This document shows positions 35,802 through 40,225 of a DNA stretch of 64,000 nucleotides, piece by piece. The notes beneath the pieces are model-generated. The model was not told the origin of the DNA. It ran no database searches and saw nothing but the letters and a program-made list of their open reading frames with translations. The position numbers and the translations under genes were made by a program. The stretch is from assembly GCF_055900595.2 (NCBI RefSeq), contig NZ_CM148325.1. The stretch is one strand, 5' to 3'. Numbering within the stretch: the stretch's first letter is position 1; the number at the start of each line of letters is the position of its first letter.

Positions 35802-37154
<1,353 letters not shown>

Positions 37155-37203
37155 TCCCCACCTCAATCTCGATAACCAAAAACAAACTATTTTTCATTTA
37201 AAA

Positions 37204-37271
37204 ACAATGGAGTTTGTTTTTCACGCCCCTTTTTACAATATTTCTTGTTTACAACATACAATCTTTCTTGT
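37204..37271. promoter_or_regulatory. Left operator oL (three 434-type sites) with pL
   Basis: ACAATGGAGTTTGT, ACAATATTTCTTGT, ACAATCTTTCTTGT upstream of N. Confidence 0.8.
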
Positions 37272-37331
37272 AATTTTAAGCCATCAGCAGGACGCACTGA
37301 CCACCATGAAGGTGAGGCTCTTAAAAATTAA

Positions 37332-37346
37332 GCCCTGAAGAAGGGC
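37332..37346 (+). promoter_or_regulatory. nutL boxB hairpin (boxA-like GCTCTTA just upstream)
   Basis: GCCCTGAAGAAGGGC preceded by GGCTCTTAAAAATTAA, as in lambda nutL. Confidence 0.8.
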
Positions 37347-37544
37347 AGCATTCAAAGCAGAAGGCTTTGGGATTGGATGAATGAGCAGGCTGATGCTCGA
37401 CCAATGTATAAACAGCGCTCATGGCAAGCAGTAACCAATCTGCGCCTCAAGACAGCGTCACTGGTAGTGCGGGCGCTCTAACCAGTAAGCCGGGGTTCAG
37501 CGCCGGCCATCCAATCACCAAAGCTAACTGACAGGAGAATCCAG

Positions 37545-37877
37545 ATGGATGCACAAACACGCCGCCGCGAACGTCGCGCAGAGAAACAGGCTCAATGGAA
37601 AGCAGCAAATCCCCTGTTGGTTGGGGTAAGCGCAAAACCAGTTAACCGCCCTATTCTCTCGCTGAATCGCAAACCGAAATCACGAGTAGAAAGCGCACTG
37701 AATCCGATAGACCTTACGGTGCTGGCTGAATACTACGAACAGATTGAAAGCAACCTGCAACGTATTGAGCGCAAGAATCAGCGCACATGGTACAGCAAGC
37801 CACGGAGTGAAATGGGTGTGACATGCTCAGGCCGCCAGAAGCAACGCGGAAAATCAATTCCGGCTTATTACGATTGA
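37545..37877 (+). CDS. N: Antiterminator N
   Basis: MDAQTRRRERRAEKQAQWKAANPLLVGVSAKPVNRPILSLNRKPKSRVESALNPIDLTVLAEY, arginine-rich motif; lambda N-like. Confidence 0.9.
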   Translation: MDAQTRRRERRAEKQAQWKAANPLLVGVSAKPVNRPILSLNRKPKSRVESALNPIDLTVLAEYYEQIESNLQRIERKNQRTWYSKPRSEMGVTCSGRQKQRGKSIPAYYD

Positions 37878-37885
37878 GGTGAGAT

Positions 37886-38137
37886 ATGGAATTTCATGAA
37901 AGTGCGATTTGTGATTTTCGCGCTAACGCAAATTCAGTAAAACCACAGCCAATTGCAGTTCTTTTTAAAACAATGGGAGCGTGGGCTGTTTTATGCTTCG
38001 CCTCTGACGACACTGATGCAAGAATGGCAATAGGCCAAGAGATGGAGATGGACCCGACAAACGATGAATTCATAATTTATGGCGCTCCATCTAATTACTT
38101 ACTTGATACCTGCAACATTTACAACAAGGCTGCCTGA
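37886..38137 (+). CDS. Hypothetical early protein (ral position)
   Basis: 83 aa ORF 8 bp after N, followed by a hairpin plus T-run terminator-like structure. Confidence 0.45.
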   Translation: MEFHESAICDFRANANSVKPQPIAVLFKTMGAWAVLCFASDDTDARMAIGQEMEMDPTNDEFIIYGAPSNYLLDTCNIYNKAA

Positions 38138-38196
38138 TGGTGGCCTTTATTTTTTTGCCGTAAATAATTTCATGATTATTACAATCAAGGTGATAT

Positions 38197-38385
38197 ATGA
38201 AACGTAAATTTGAAATTTGGTTGGATTCCGGAGCAAACATTCACTCTTGCAAAAAGACAGTTGTAACACTCGATGATCTTGGCTTATCCGAGAATGAGTG
38301 GAATGAAATGGATCAGGACGAAAAAGACGAAAACATGCGTGATGTAGCATTTGAAACGCTTGATTGGGGATGGAAGGAAATTTAA
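38197..38385 (+). CDS. Small acidic hypothetical protein
   Basis: 62 aa, very acidic (ENEWNEMDQDEKDENMRD); followed by hairpin GGCCGCATAGTCGGCC plus T-run. Confidence 0.45.
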   Translation: MKRKFEIWLDSGANIHSCKKTVVTLDDLGLSENEWNEMDQDEKDENMRDVAFETLDWGWKEI

Positions 38386-38624
38386 GTGATGGCCGCATAG
38401 TCGGCCTTTATTTTTGGCATAAACAACAGAATAAACACAGCACTGTGTATTCATTCCAACGAGTGAATACACGGAGCAATGTCGCTCGTAACTAAACAGG
38501 AGCCGACTTGTTCTGATTATTGGAAATCTTCTTTGCCCTCCGATGTGAGGGCTTTTTTATATGCATACCAATAACGCTTCACTCGAGGCGTTTTCGTTAT
38601 GCAATCAAACAGAAGGAGCATCCT

Positions 38625-38795
38625 ATGCAACAGTTCGCTATTGCAGGGGCGGCATCGGTTCGCCCTTTCAACCCGATTTTATCGGTACAGCATTCACGAA
38701 AAAATATTTTAACCGGAGCAGACTTTAAACAACCAAGAATGAAAAGTTTGCTCGAAAAGCTTTGGGATATTTTGAAACAACAAGGCCGTCCATGA
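38625..38795 (+). CDS. cIII-like small protein
   Basis: 56 aa from ATG after AGGAG: MQQFAIAGAASVRP...SLLEKLWDILKQQGRP, resembling the lambda cIII pattern. Confidence 0.5.
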   Translation: MQQFAIAGAASVRPFNPILSVQHSRKNILTGADFKQPRMKSLLEKLWDILKQQGRP

Positions 38796-38950
38796 GTTTT
38801 ACGGATAACTGGTCAGACGAAGAATTCATTCGTCAGATGAAAGAATTAATCGGTAACGAAGGAGATATTCATGTCACTTGCAACCACAGTGAAGGAGAGC
38901 AAGTTACAGAGACGCATGTACACGCAGAAAGCTCTCTGGTATCGCCATAA
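38792..38950 (+). CDS. Small hypothetical protein (start overlaps cIII-like stop)
   Basis: 52 aa MSFTDNWSDEEFIRQMKELIGNEGDIHVTCNHSEGEQ...; ATGA overlap. Confidence 0.35.
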   Translation: MSFTDNWSDEEFIRQMKELIGNEGDIHVTCNHSEGEQVTETHVHAESSLVSP

Positions 38951-39049
38951 TGGCGACCGCGAAGGAATGCGGGTATGCCTTAATTTGTCCCGAGTCGAAG
39001 TATTAAATCAGCGTTATTTCCTTGGGCCATGTCCATTCTGAGGTGATTT

Positions 39050-39757
39050 ATGGATTTGAATAAATTCGATGAGCCATTCAGCCCTGAAGATATCGAATGG
39101 CGAATACAGCAAAGCGGTAAAACACGCGATGGCAAAGTGTGGGCTATGGTGCTGGCTTATGTCACGAACCGGGCAATCATGAAACGCCTGGACGATGTTT
39201 GCGGCAAAGCAGGATGGCGCAATGAATACCGCGATATTCCCAACAACGGCGGAGTTGAATGCGGCATATCAATCAAGATTGATTCCGAATGGGTAACCAA
39301 ATGGGATGCCGCTGAAAACACGCAGGTAGAAGCCGTCAAAGGTGGTCGTTCCGGTGCAATGAAGCGCGCTGCCGTTCAGTGGGGAATCGGTCGGTATCTG
39401 TATAACCTTGAGGAAGGTTTTGCACAAACATCTCTCGATAAAAAGCAGGGATGGCACAGGGCAAAACTCAAGGATGGAACAGGATTTTACTGGCTCCCTC
39501 CATCGCTGCCGGGATGGGCAATCCCAGCATCAGATAACAAACCATCACCAGAAAATACCAACCAGAAATCTCCATCGGTTGACTGCGAACAAATCCTGAA
39601 AGACTTCAGCGATTATGCGTCAACAGAAACTGACAAGAAAAAACTCATCGAGCGTTATCAGCGTGACTGGCAATTAATGGCTGGCAACGAGGAGGCGCAG
39701 GCTAAATGCGTTCAGGTAATGAACATCAGAGTTAACGAACTAAAACAGGCGGCATAA
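39050..39757 (+). CDS. Single-strand annealing protein (Rad52/Sak-like recombinase)
   Basis: 235 aa in the recombination slot of the pL operon; architecture-based inference, not lambda Bet. Confidence 0.55.
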   Translation: MDLNKFDEPFSPEDIEWRIQQSGKTRDGKVWAMVLAYVTNRAIMKRLDDVCGKAGWRNEYRDIPNNGGVECGISIKIDSEWVTKWDAAENTQVEAVKGGRSGAMKRAAVQWGIGRYLYNLEEGFAQTSLDKKQGWHRAKLKDGTGFYWLPPSLPGWAIPASDNKPSPENTNQKSPSVDCEQILKDFSDYASTETDKKKLIERYQRDWQLMAGNEEAQAKCVQVMNIRVNELKQAA

Positions 39758-40225
39758 ATGTCTCACTTGGACGGAATTATTAAAAGATTCGAGTCCAGCT
39801 ACAAAGTTAATGAAACAACAGGTTGCTGGGAGTCTACCTATTCAAAAAACAAAGGAGGATACACAAAATTTGTAGCCTTTGGCGTAACAATGCTTTCTCA
39901 TCGGGTTGCTTTTGAGCTTTATCACTCCCCCATTCCATCTGGGAAGATGGTTTGCCACAAATGCGATAACCCATGCTGCGTTAATCCTGAACATCTCTTT
40001 TTAGGTAGCGCGCAAGAAAACATGGACGACAAGATAGCAAAAGGAAGGCATCGTGGAGCCAAGAAAGGTCATGCTCATCATGGTGCAAAATTAACAGAGT
40101 GGCAGGTTATAGAAATTAGGAAAAGACTCTCTGAAAAAGAGAGTCAGTACAAGATAGCAAAAGACATGGGTGTATCTCAATCAATTATAAGCAACATAAA
40201 AACTGGCAAGAGGTGGAGCAAATGA
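39758..40225 (+). CDS. HNH endonuclease
   Basis: 155 aa; [11 protein letters not shown]...[29 protein letters not shown]/zinc motif; inserted between annealing protein and SSB. Confidence 0.75.

What the first reader, a model, noticed from the sequence alone, without database searches (positions are those of the whole stretch)
37886..38950. Unfamiliar small genes downstream of N, including a strongly acidic 62 aa protein
Where lambda carries ral, sieB, cIII and kil, this prophage has a different set. It includes a very acidic 62 aa ORF (38197-38385) bracketed by hairpin terminators, and only a loosely cIII-like peptide. Small acidic early proteins in this position are often anti-restriction or anti-defence factors (DNA mimics).
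Basis: inference. Interest (0 to 1): 0.45.

Follow-up and report, generated by a model that had tools for sequence, protein, structure and literature searches.

The report
Swappable small-gene slot in prophage
This stretch of an E. coli lambda-like prophage holds known early-gene parts (a cIII variant, the PreS small RNA) plus a rare swappable 62-residue acidic gene, DUF7167, whose function is untested but which is a reasonable candidate for an early phage inhibitor of a host or rival-phage protein.

Summary
Downstream of N (37545-37877) lie ORF83 (37886-38137), an acidic 62 aa ORF (38197-38385; pI 4.4, net -8) between two terminator-like hairpins, a cIII-family gene (38625-38795) and two overlapping small ORFs. 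No ral, sieB, kil, ea10 or P22 gene 17 homologue occurs in the window.

The acidic ORF belongs to Pfam DUF7167 / phrog_8831. The family has 291 clusters at 50% identity, from enteric lambdoid phages to Vibrio phages and a cyanophage. It is acidic throughout (median net -10) and under purifying selection (dN/dS about 0.24). It occupies a hypervariable slot in which whole ORFs are exchanged between a shared ribosome-site/ATG leader and a shared hairpin. Other genomes carry nothing there, or a Sf6 gp34-like gene, Nmad5 plus P22 gene 17, Ea10/DUF2528 or DUF7446.

That spacer encodes the Hfq-dependent sRNA PreS, which ends at terminator tL2a.

No fold, sequence or literature link ties DUF7167 to any known DNA mimic or anti-defence protein. 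Anti-defence remains a positional inference.

Verdict: ordinary lambdoid architecture with one uncharacterised, catalogued cargo gene. Interest is modest.

The parts
37317..37346 (+). nutL: boxA-like GCTCTTA (37317-37323) and boxB GCCCTGAAGAAGGGC (37332-37346). This is the site where N loads, so that pL transcription reads through the downstream terminators.
   Evidence: Read directly from the sequence. The boxB hairpin was also picked up on the opposite strand. The match to lambda nutL is from my own knowledge of the lambda sequence.
37545..37877 (+). Antiterminator N (110 aa, lambda type).
   Evidence: Pfam N36 at E=1.6e-26 and phrog_271. PGAP labels it 'antitermination protein N'.
37886..38137 (+). 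ORF83: 83 aa, acidic (net -7, pI 4.2), function unknown. It is the gene directly after N in Stx phages and HK106-like phages.
   Evidence: phrog_2471 at E=2.9e-61. It corresponds to HK106_042, whose record notes similarity to VT2-Sakai VT2-Sap20. The family is restricted to Enterobacteriaceae at 70% identity or more. It is present in 402 of 5426 complete E. coli genomes. The AF2 model is unusable at pLDDT 55.
38126..38157 (+). Hairpin 1 plus T-run (AAGGCTGCC-TGAT-GGTGGCCTT TATTTTTTT). It overlaps the ORF83 stop codon. It is the left boundary of the cargo slot and the same hairpin that follows ral in lambda and Sf6.
   Evidence: -13.9 kcal/mol. In genomes with an empty slot it is followed directly by the PreS region. 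The same sequence follows lambda ral and Sf6 gene 35.
38158..38196 (+). Cassette leader (GCCGTAAATAATTTCATGATTATTACAATCAAGGTGATAT, then ATG). It is shared almost base for base with the unrelated Sf6 gp34-like cargo.
   Evidence: comparing the window with L068 and Sf6. No sigma-70-like promoter was found here.
38197..38385 (+). DUF7167 gene: 62 aa, pI 4.4, net -8. This is the exchangeable cargo of the slot.
   Evidence: PF23768 at 34.7 bits against a cut-off of 24.4, and phrog_8831 at E=1.3e-32. 291 representatives at 50% identity. Median dN/dS is 0.235. It is present in only 33 of 5426 complete E. coli genomes, 30 of them with most of the query covered.
38391..38415 (+). Hairpin 2 plus T-run (GGCCG-CATAGT-CGGCC TTTATTTTT). 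It is the right boundary of the cargo cassette and is shared by the Sf6 gp34-like and Nmad5 cargos.
38404..38558 (+). Conserved non-coding block, corresponding to the lambda ral-ea10 spacer and the Sf6 'boundary sequence bsq4'. It contains a 14-bp hairpin (38443-38474) and the PreS region.
   Evidence: 96.2% identity to lambda over 157 aligned positions. Part of it (38391-38470) is 95% or more identical in most of 325 phage records. The hairpin folds at -18.8 kcal/mol, z=-7.3.
38471..38558 (+). Homologue of the sRNA PreS (LPR1), about 88 nt. It consists of a 5' stem-loop, an unpaired U-rich stretch, and the tL2a-type terminator 38535-38552 with its U-tail. The 5' end is placed only by counting 88 nt back from the U-tail.
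   Evidence: 97.6% identity to lambda over 82 nt, with both mismatches in the terminator loop. The fold gives z=-3.6. PreS is described in lambda as an Hfq-dependent sRNA of about 88 nt between ral and ea10, ending at tL2a, that activates dnaN (bioRxiv 10.1101/2024.10.31.621285).
38573..38592 (+). A further hairpin upstream of cIII, with a weak T-tail. It is shared with HK106.
38625..38795 (+). cIII-family gene (56 aa, basic). It is a variant with a divergent, longer central segment.
   Evidence: phrog_550 'CIII' at E=1e-22. Against lambda CIII only the MQxFAIAG start and the L(x)DIL(x)Q(x)G(x)P end align, at E=0.025. PGAP calls it hypothetical, WP_001183771.1.
38792..38950 (+). orf52: 52 aa, net -9, corresponding to Sf6 gp30 and HK97 gp42.1. 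Its start overlaps the cIII stop codon (ATGA). Coding status is tentative.
Evidence: phrog_2123 at E=6.6e-42. It is not annotated by PGAP. Codon-position bias is weak, cp3:cp2:cp1 = 41:28:37.
38871..39041 (+). orf56: 56 aa, basic, corresponding to Sf6 gp29 and HK97 gp42. It overlaps orf52 by 80 nt in another frame and lies just upstream of the Rad52-like annealing protein gene.
   Evidence: phrog_1723 at E=9.4e-36. Codon-position bias is clear, cp3:cp2:cp1 = 94:21:48. It is not annotated by PGAP.

Best explanation
The region is the N-to-cIII accessory segment of the early-left (pL) operon of a lambdoid prophage of E. coli EC332.

Anatomy and expression. Transcription starts at pL and is made terminator-resistant by N acting at nutL. 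It then runs through:
- ORF83;
- a hairpin-bounded cargo slot that here holds a DUF7167 gene;
- the conserved block that encodes the Hfq-dependent sRNA PreS and ends at tL2a;
- a cIII-family gene;
- two overlapping small ORFs;
- the recombination module (Rad52-like annealing protein, HNH, SSB, Abc2).

The cargo slot. The 62 aa acidic ORF is the exchangeable unit of a hypervariable slot. Different, unrelated ORFs are swapped in precisely between a shared ribosome-site/ATG leader and a shared 3' hairpin, apparently by recombination at these short conserved boundary sequences.

Inferred expression. DUF7167 has no promoter of its own, so it would be made only after infection or induction, as an N-dependent delayed-early protein.

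Inferred function (not shown). DUF7167 works alone as a small, acidic, stoichiometric binder that blocks a host or rival-prophage protein, which would be a counter-defence or host-takeover function. The conserved acidic face of its helices (residues 32-56) would contact a basic surface, probably a nucleic-acid-binding one. The conserved W-x-DSGAN-xx-S turn and the tryptophans would build its small core.

My estimates: about 0.9 for the anatomy and the cassette nature, about 0.4 for 'early inhibitor of a host or rival protein', and about 0.1 for the specific idea of a DNA mimic of type I restriction enzymes.
For: Anatomy.
- The window is 100% identical to the annotated EC332 prophage.
- nutL was read, and the terminators come.
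- The PreS block is 96-98% identical to lambda. The experimental description of PreS in lambda was read.

Cassette.
- Genomes with an empty slot join hairpin 1 directly to the PreS block (M160133, HK106, and lambda after ral).
- The filled slots examined carry phrog_3054, Nmad5 plus a gp17-like gene, Ea10/DUF2528 or DUF7446.
- The leader, up to the ATG, is shared with the phrog_3054 cargo. The 3' hairpin is shared with the phrog_3054 and Nmad5 cargos.
- Sf6 annotators marked the block as a 'boundary sequence'.
- DUF7167 is rare, in 33 of 5426 E. coli genomes, whereas some part of the 1065-base region matches in 2271 genomes.

Real gene.
- 291 clusters at 50% identity, almost all stand-alone proteins of 55-75 aa.
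- Median dN/dS is 0.235.
- All 97 aligned members hit PF23768.

Functional inference.
- Acidity is a family trait: median net -10, pI 4.05-5.4. Acidic columns at 32-34, 40-42, 44-45, 49, 53 and 56 lie on the predicted helices.
- No promoter-like site was found upstream of the gene.
- The same position just before C3 is kept in Salmonella P22-like phages. 40 of 57 IMG/VR loci have a lambdoid context, and 23 have the PreS block directly downstream.
- In P22 the gene in this position is gene 17, annotated 'allows growth on phage Fels2 lysogen'.
- There is no conserved partner gene, and the family occurs in lytic Vibrio phages, an Aeromonas phage and a cyanophage. This points to a stand-alone action on a widely conserved target.
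Against: - No experiment, homology or fold links DUF7167 to any function.
- The AF2 model has only moderate confidence: pLDDT 69.6, and about 55 over the conserved N-terminal motif. The placement of the acidic residues on one helical face is therefore tentative.
- Most genes in this operon segment have no known function (PMC8022706), so guilt by position is weak.
- Acidity is common among small phage proteins.
- Ral co-occurs with DUF7167 in 11 loci, so DUF7167 is not simply a Ral substitute.
- Transcription of this prophage was not examined.
Confidence: 0.5

Rival explanations
1. One reading: DUF7167 is a classical DNA-mimic anti-restriction protein, like Ocr, ArdA, Arn or Gp5.9. It would occupy the DNA-binding groove of type I restriction-modification enzymes, or another DNA-binding defence nuclease.
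For: - Net -8 in 62 aa, and acidity conserved across the family. As I recall it, the charge density is similar to that of T7 Gp5.9, a 52 aa DNA mimic.
- Early N-dependent position next to where ral sits in lambda, Sf6 and P22.
- This prophage has no ral.
Against: - 13% of residues are basic.
- The best-conserved residues are a Gly/Ala/Asn/Ser turn and tryptophans, not acidic arrays.
- Ral and DUF7167 co-occur in 11 of 57 loci.
- hhalign against Ral finds nothing.
Confidence: 0.1
2. DUF7167 serves the phage's own programme rather than conflict with the host's defences. It could be a modulator of the lysis-lysogeny decision, replication or recombination (as cIII, Kil, Arf and PreS are), acting on a host housekeeping protein or on a phage protein.
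For: - Its neighbours with known roles are of this type: cIII, PreS, and Kil and Arf in related loci.
- PreS lies immediately downstream in 23 of 57 loci.
- The family also occurs in lytic phages among nucleotide-metabolism and early genes.
Against: - It is rare and freely replaceable in otherwise near-identical prophages, in 33 of 5426 genomes. That is typical of accessory conflict genes rather than core regulators.
- There is no conserved partner gene.
Confidence: 0.2
3. DUF7167 is a prophage-expressed 'moron' that protects the lysogen, by superinfection exclusion or defence. In this reading the flanking terminators insulate it as an independent transcription unit.
For: - The gene is flanked by terminator-like hairpins, which resembles moron anatomy.
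- The neighbouring slot in lambda and P22 holds sieB.
Against: - No promoter-like site lies between hairpin 1 and the ATG.
- The leader is shared with other cargos and contains only a ribosome-binding site.
- The gene is co-oriented with pL and would be repressed in a lysogen.
- The family occurs in lytic phages of about 130 kb.
- PADLOC finds nothing.
Confidence: 0.07
4. The ORF has no function of its own. It would be a hitch-hiking or decaying ORF carried along with the recombinogenic boundary sequences.
For: - The mEp043 copy looks truncated. Only residues 15-62 match, and the match is 185 nt long.
- It is rare in E. coli.
Against: - Purifying selection, with median dN/dS of 0.235.
- 291 divergent clusters with conserved motif, length and charge across distant phage groups.
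- A good ribosome-binding site.
Confidence: 0.03

Closest known systems
Pfam DUF7167 (PF23768) / PHROG phrog_8831
   Same: The 62 aa ORF is a full-length member, covering profile positions 1-58 of 60. It shares the W-x-D-S-G-A-N-x-x-S motif, G29, W35, the C-terminal W-G-aromatic-x-E, the length of about 62 aa, and the acidity.
   Different: Nothing differs. It is a typical member. The family has no assigned function and no paper mentions it.
P22 gene 17 (phrog_1510)
   Same: It occupies the same position, as the last gene before the terminator/PreS block and c3 in a pL operon. It is a small early accessory gene of the same exchangeable slot, seen next to Nmad5 in E. coli BA92. The P22 record annotates it 'allows growth on phage Fels2 lysogen', which is a counter-exclusion function.
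   Different: It is unrelated in sequence (hhalign finds nothing). It is 103 aa rather than 62 aa. It co-occurs with DUF7167 in 3 loci.
Lambda Ral and DNA-mimic anti-restriction proteins (Ocr, ArdA, Arn, Gp5.9)
   Same: These are small proteins expressed early. Ral lies in the same operon segment. The mimics are acidic.
   Different: There is no sequence relation to Ral and no fold relation to any solved protein. Ral itself is not a DNA mimic; it alleviates type I restriction, as annotated and as described in PMC8022706. The charge of DUF7167 is moderate and interrupted by eight basic residues.
Lambda PreS (LPR1) sRNA / terminator tL2a / Sf6 boundary sequence bsq4
   Same: 38404-38558 is 96% identical to the lambda ral-ea10 spacer. 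The last 82 nt or so differ only by two bases in the terminator loop. The position upstream of cIII is the same, and so is the architecture of stem-loop, unpaired stretch and terminator with U-tail (paper read).
   Different: The tail after the terminator differs (GCTTTTTTAT here, GCGATTTTTT in lambda). The downstream gene is cIII rather than ea10. Expression and Hfq binding were not tested here.
Lambda CIII / P22 C3 (FtsH inhibitor, phrog_550)
   Same: It gives a profile match at E=1e-22. It shares the N-terminal MQxFAIAG, the C-terminal L-x-D-I-L-x-Q-x-G-x-P, the size of 56 aa and the map position.
   Different: The central segment is replaced and 12 residues longer. In lambda that segment is the region I recall as essential (about residues 14-37, an amphipathic helix). 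BLASTP against lambda gives only E=0.025. No kil gene follows it.

Membership tests
Pfam DUF7167 (PF23768) | Whole-protein score above Pfam's gathering threshold | tested here: met
   34.7 bits against a cut-off of 24.4, E=2e-8, covering profile positions 1-58 of 60. All 97 aligned relatives also match.
Pfam DUF7167 (PF23768) | Family-conserved residues (aromatic-x-[DN]-[SN]-G-A-N-x-x-S; G29; W35; W/G/aromatic-x-E at the C-terminus) and a stand-alone length of about 62 aa | tested here: met
   All are present in the window protein. Most of the 150 listed hits are 55-75 aa long.
DNA-mimic anti-restriction proteins (Ocr/ArdA/Arn/Gp5.9 type) | High net negative charge, conserved across relatives | tested here: inconclusive
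   Net -8 in 62 aa, 26% D/E but 13% K/R. The family median is -10, with a range of -19 to -2. This is compatible with a mimic but not specific to one.
DNA-mimic anti-restriction proteins (Ocr/ArdA/Arn/Gp5.9 type) | Fold or sequence similarity to a solved DNA mimic | tested here: not met
DNA-mimic anti-restriction proteins (Ocr/ArdA/Arn/Gp5.9 type) | Binds and inhibits a DNA-binding defence enzyme, and acidic side chains follow B-DNA phosphate spacing | not testable with these tools
   This needs binding or restriction-alleviation assays and an experimental or multimer structure.
Lambda Ral (phrog_1055) | Sequence homology to Ral | tested here: not met
   hhalign of the DUF7167 alignment against lambda Ral gives probability 0.2%. 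tblastn with Ral finds nothing in the window.
P22 gp17 (phrog_1510) | Sequence homology to gp17 | tested here: not met
   hhalign gives probability 2.7% with one aligned column. tblastn finds nothing in the window. Only the map position is shared.
Moron (autonomous promoter-gene-terminator unit in a prophage) | Own promoter upstream of the gene | tested here: not met
   No sigma-70-like site lies between 38148 and 38196. The leader holds only a ribosome-binding site and is shared with other cargos. The scan is a simple consensus match.
Moron (autonomous promoter-gene-terminator unit in a prophage) | Own terminator downstream | tested here: met
   Hairpin at 38391-38406 followed by TTTATTTTT.
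PreS / LPR1 sRNA | [quoted passage not shown] | tested here: met
   97.6% over 82 nt with no gaps, and 96.2% over 157 positions with one gap. The alignment is and the criterion was read.
PreS / LPR1 sRNA | 3' end formed by a tL2a-type GC-rich hairpin plus U-tail, located in the pL operon | tested here: met
   Terminator at 38535-38552 followed by TTTTTT. It lies downstream of N and upstream of cIII. The Sf6 record labels the homologous terminator tL2A.
PreS / LPR1 sRNA | Expressed in the lytic cycle, bound by Hfq, and activates dnaN | not testable with these tools
   Shown for lambda only. The unpaired region where the paper places the predicted seed is identical here.
CIII (phrog_550), FtsH inhibitor | Profile match to the family | tested here: met
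   E=1e-22, residues 1-56 on profile positions 1-46 of 53.
CIII (phrog_550), FtsH inhibitor | Conserved central amphipathic region (about lambda residues 14-37; recalled from the literature, not verified here) | tested here: inconclusive
   The centre is divergent and 12 residues longer. Only SLLEKLWDIL resembles lambda's WKRLIDIL.
CIII (phrog_550), FtsH inhibitor | Inhibits FtsH and stabilises CII | not testable with these tools
   No assay was possible. A CII-family gene is present in the prophage.

The most novel reading that the evidence does not exclude
DUF7167 may be the first recognised member of a broad, stand-alone family of small acidic phage inhibitors. The family has at least 291 clusters at 50% identity and runs from enteric lambdoid phages to Vibrio phages and a cyanophage. 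Its members would neutralise a widely conserved bacterial nucleic-acid-binding protein or defence system through a new fold. It sits in a precisely exchangeable slot of the lambdoid pL operon, so that slot could then be mined, cargo by cargo, for further counter-defence genes (the Sf6 gp34-like family, DUF7446, Nmad5).
Probability: 0.3. Interest if true: 0.6.

Novelty: new member of a known kind. Interest (0 to 1): 0.3.

Why it matters
If DUF7167 proves to be a counter-defence or host-takeover factor, three things follow:
- It would add a compact (62 aa), widely distributed inhibitor family with no known fold relatives.
- It would give a function to a Pfam DUF.
- It would mark the hairpin-bounded slot between N/ORF83 and PreS as a defined place to harvest such genes from thousands of E. 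coli and Salmonella prophages.

Two findings are practical for annotators regardless of function. The 'spacer' at 38404-38558 is the PreS sRNA gene. The 'hypothetical' protein at 38625-38795 is a cIII-family variant.

As it stands, the locus is ordinary lambdoid mosaicism carrying one uncharacterised cargo gene.

Tried and rejected
- Structure of ORF83. The alignment is shallow (14 sequences, 70% identity or more) and the model reached pLDDT 55, so I did not use it for fold search.
- DSGAN as a catalytic or ligand-binding site. I considered a retropepsin-like D-S/T-G-A, a phosphate-binding loop and an EF-hand. I rejected these as unsupported. The motif instead produces partial hits to ankyrin-repeat proteins, which have a similar L-L-x-x-G-A-[DN] turn. 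That suggests a structural turn. The protein is too short for those folds.
- Fusion partners. A 174 aa cyanophage protein, a fusion with an RF-1-like fragment, and tandem duplicates gave no informative domain.
- Conserved neighbours outside lambdoid phages. None was found.
- Databases. PADLOC and NCBIfam gave nothing. Rfam gave nothing in 36000-40000 at E up to 1, so no Rfam family matches the PreS region.
- Literature. Searches for DUF7167, PF23768, phrog_8831, the WP accession and the motif found no papers. The motif is also absent from the supplements of one accessory-gene screen.
- Remote homology to slot-mates Ral and gp17. None.
- An own promoter for the cassette. None found.
- The search for related loci with the broad alignment failed. 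I repeated it with the narrower alignment.
Full report
SOURCE AND LAYOUT

The finding's 1065 bases are 100% identical to the chromosome of E. coli EC332 (NZ_AP039429.1), inside a lambdoid prophage. The early-left operon runs on the + strand of the window. In order it contains:
- a LexA-family cI repressor (36121-36753) and a small gene in the position where lambda has rex;
- nutL, with a lambda-type boxA/boxB at 37317-37346;
- N (37545-37877; Pfam N36 at E=1.6e-26);
- the finding itself;
- a recombination module with a Rad52-like annealing protein, an HNH endonuclease, SSB and Abc2.

CHECK OF THE OBSERVATION

The 62 aa ORF at 38197-38385 has a good ribosome-binding site, 16 acidic and 8 basic residues, net -8 and pI 4.38.

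Terminator-like hairpins lie at 38126-38147 and 38391-38406, on either side of it, and a third lies at 38535-38552. They fold at -13.9, -11.5 and -11.1 kcal/mol.

tblastn with lambda and P22 Ral, SieB and Kil, P22 gp17 and Ea10 finds no homologue anywhere in the 64 kb window. The statement that this prophage carries a different set from lambda is therefore correct.

The region is only partly 'unfamiliar'. Each ORF falls in an existing PHROG:
- ORF83: phrog_2471;
- the acidic ORF: phrog_8831 and Pfam DUF7167;
- the 56 aa ORF at 38625-38795: the CIII family, phrog_550 (E=1e-22);
- 38792-38950: phrog_2123 (corresponding to Sf6 gp30);
- 38871-39041: phrog_1723 (corresponding to Sf6 gp29).

PGAP already names the acidic ORF 'DUF7167 family protein'.

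THE cIII GENE

Against lambda CIII only the N-terminal MQxFAIAG and the C-terminal DIL-Q-G-P align (BLASTP E=0.025). The centre is different and 12 residues longer. 'Loosely cIII-like' is a fair description relative to lambda. The profile match and the map position nevertheless make it a cIII-family variant. Whether it inhibits FtsH cannot be tested here. No kil gene follows it.

The 'spacer' at 38404-38558 is 96.2% identical to the lambda ral-ea10 intergenic region. Part of it is conserved at 95% or more in most of 325 phage records.

A 2024 preprint (bioRxiv 10.1101/2024.10.31.621285) shows that in lambda this region encodes LPR1/PreS. PreS is an Hfq-dependent sRNA of about 88 nt, processed to about 68 nt, whose 3' end is the tL2a terminator. 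It is made in the lytic cycle, activates dnaN translation and promotes phage DNA replication.

In the window the last 82 nt or so before the U-tail differ from lambda only by two bases in the terminator loop. The fold has the expected stem-loop, unpaired stretch and terminator (z=-3.6). Rfam 15 gives no match in this region.

The Sf6 record labels the same block 'boundary sequence bsq4' and its terminator 'tL2A'.

A very stable 14-bp hairpin (38443-38474; -18.8 kcal/mol, z=-7.3) lies just upstream of the inferred PreS 5' end.

THE ACIDIC ORF IS THE CARGO OF A PRECISELY BOUNDED, HYPERVARIABLE SLOT

In E. coli M160133, in HK106, and in lambda (after ral), hairpin 1 (GGCTGCCTGATGGTGGCCTTTATTTTT) is followed directly by GGCATAAATAACAGAATA, which is the start of the PreS block.

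In the window a cargo lies between hairpin 1 and a second hairpin (GGCCGCATAGTCGGCCTTTATTTTT), which is then followed by the PreS block. The same second hairpin closes the phrog_3054 cargo in DETEC-E601 and Sf6 and the Nmad5 gene in BA92. There the gp17-like gene lies between it and cIII.

The other genomes examined carry the following cargos:
- DETEC-E601 and Sf6: a phrog_3054 protein (Sf6 gp34);
- BA92: an 'Nmad5 family putative nucleotide modification protein' plus a homologue of P22 gene 17;
- EEC_W5: Ea10/DUF2528;
- TW14425: DUF7446.

The leader up to the ATG (GCCGTAAATAATTTCATGaTTATTACAATCAAGGtGATAT-ATG) is shared, apart from two or three substitutions, between the DUF7167 cassette and the unrelated phrog_3054 cassette. 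Where DUF7167 directly follows N (IME10, mEp043), the junction is again GAGGTGATAT-ATG.

So whole ORFs are exchanged between a conserved ribosome-site/start junction and a conserved hairpin. This is the classic lambdoid 'boundary sequence' mosaicism. The hairpins that 'bracket' the acidic ORF are therefore module boundaries and ordinary N-overridden terminators. They are not a feature specific to this gene.

No promoter-like site lies in the leader. I therefore infer that expression is N-dependent and delayed-early.

Frequencies differ sharply across 5426 complete E. coli genomes:
- DUF7167: 33 genomes;
- ORF83: 402 genomes;
- some part of the 1065-base region: 2271 genomes.

THE DUF7167 FAMILY

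A full HMMER scan of 1.84 billion representatives found 291 clusters at E<=0.001, almost all stand-alone proteins of 55-75 aa.

Members occur in the following phages:
- E. coli lambdoid and P22-like phages (IME10, mEp043);
- Salmonella P22-like phage UPF_BP1, again immediately upstream of C3;
- an Aeromonas phage;
- Vibrio phages of about 130 kb;
- Synechococcus phage S-CBWM1, where it forms the N-terminus of a 174 aa protein.

Of 57 IMG/VR loci, 40 have a lambdoid context and 23 have the PreS block directly downstream. Ral co-occurs in 11 and gp17 in 3.

Conserved positions are an aromatic residue, then x-[DN]-[SN]-G-A-N-x-x-S near the N-terminus, then G29, W35, and W-G-aromatic-x-E at the C-terminus.

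Acidity is a family trait (median net -10, pI 4.05-5.4). Acidic columns are concentrated at 32-34, 40-42, 44-45, 49, 53 and 56, on the two predicted helices.

Median pairwise dN/dS is 0.235, so this is a real, selected protein.

The motif gives partial hits to ankyrin-repeat proteins. I read this as a similar local turn, not homology and not an active site.

FUNCTION

Nothing in the databases or the literature assigns a function:
- PADLOC and NCBIfam give nothing.
- The related PHROGs are all of unknown function.
- No other Pfam family recurs among the members.
- The PDB profile search has no hit better than E=0.025.
- No paper mentions the family.
- hhalign finds no relation to Ral or to P22 gp17.

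What remains is inference from several observations:
- probable early, N-dependent expression;
- free gain and loss among near-identical prophages;
- a position whose annotated occupants or neighbours include counter-defence functions, namely P22 gene 17 'allows growth on phage Fels2 lysogen', ral, and a putative nucleotide-modification protein;
- no conserved partner gene;
- a host range of the family that spans enterobacteria to cyanobacteria;
- a conserved acidic helical surface.

Together these make a stand-alone stoichiometric inhibitor of a conserved host or rival-phage protein the most likely mode of action (about 0.4). A basic, nucleic-acid-binding target would fit best. A true DNA mimic of type I restriction enzymes is a less likely special case (about 0.1).

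A role in the phage's own regulatory, replication or recombination programme is the main rival (about 0.2). A lysogen-protecting moron (about 0.07) and a functionless ORF (about 0.03) are disfavoured by the lack of a promoter and by purifying selection, respectively. The remaining probability is unassigned.

It should be kept in mind that most early-left genes of P22-like phages have no known function (PMC8022706). Positional inference is therefore weak.

OTHER ORFs

ORF83 is acidic (net -7). Its family is confined to Enterobacteriaceae at 70% identity or more, and it could not be modelled (pLDDT 55).

orf56 shows clear third-position substitution bias (94:21:48), which supports coding. orf52 does not (41:28:37), so it is tentative. 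Neither is annotated by PGAP.

orf52 shares a W-[ST]-D-[DE]-[EA]-F-I motif with small ORFs found just upstream of the annealing-protein gene in related loci, where P22 has arf. I suspect a recombination accessory role but did not test it.

VERDICT

The locus is standard lambdoid mosaic architecture carrying one rare, catalogued but uncharacterised cargo gene. I rate it 'new member of a known kind' with interest 0.3. It is a reasonable but unexceptional candidate for anti-defence screening.

Noticed in passing
window 38404-38558 (PreS-like about 38471-38558): The apparent spacer between the acidic ORF and cIII is 96% identical to lambda's ral-ea10 region. That region encodes the Hfq-dependent sRNA PreS/LPR1 ending at tL2a. 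Sf6 annotators called the same block 'boundary sequence bsq4'. Rfam 15 gives no match here.
   Followed up: yes
window 38443-38474: A perfect 14-bp hairpin (-18.8 kcal/mol, z=-7.3) lies immediately upstream of the inferred PreS 5' end and is conserved in lambda, Sf6 and HK106. It may be a processing signal for release of the sRNA from the pL transcript.
   Followed up: partly
window 38148-38196 and 38391-38415; L068, L007, L009, L008: Unrelated cargo ORFs (DUF7167 and the Sf6 gp34-like phrog_3054) share nearly the same leader up to the ATG and the same 3' hairpin. A (A/G)AGGTG(A/C)TAT-ATG junction recurs at several gene starts here. Gene exchange therefore appears to occur exactly at ORF boundaries.
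   Followed up: yes
window 36678-37154 (likely start about 36750): The gene in the position of lambda rex (phrog_2651, unknown function) has an N-terminal signal-peptide-like stretch ([16 protein letters not shown]) if started upstream of PGAP's call (36843). It may be a secreted, prophage-expressed protein with a mis-called start.
   Followed up: no
window 38792-39041: Two small ORFs overlap by 80 nt in different frames (corresponding to Sf6 gp30 and gp29) and are left unannotated by PGAP. Only the second (38871-39041) shows clear codon-position substitution bias.
   Followed up: partly
window 39758-40225: An HNH endonuclease gene sits between the Rad52-like annealing protein and SSB genes of the recombination module. 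It may be a homing-type insertion.
   Followed up: no
L008 / L016 (phage mEp043): The mEp043 DUF7167 copy directly follows N and matches only residues 15-62. The match is 185 nt long, which is not a multiple of three. It may be frameshifted or truncated and so lack the DSGAN motif.
   Followed up: no
P0030 (Synechococcus phage S-CBWM1 gp148), P0058, P0102, P0132: Rare architectures of DUF7167 include an N-terminal domain of a 174 aa cyanophage protein, a C-terminal fusion to an RF-1-like fragment with a degenerate GGQ motif, and tandem duplications with a degenerate motif.
   Followed up: partly
P0111, P0130 (long ankyrin-repeat proteins): The DUF7167 profile picks up ankyrin-repeat STAND/NACHT proteins through the L-D-S-G-A-N-I segment, which resembles the ankyrin L-L-x-x-G-A-[DN] turn. 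These are false positives for family membership.
   Followed up: partly
window 38049-38076: The only sigma-70-like site in 37100-39300 (TGGACC-16-CATAAT, 9 of 12 matches) lies inside ORF83. It is fewer than expected by chance and probably meaningless.
   Followed up: no
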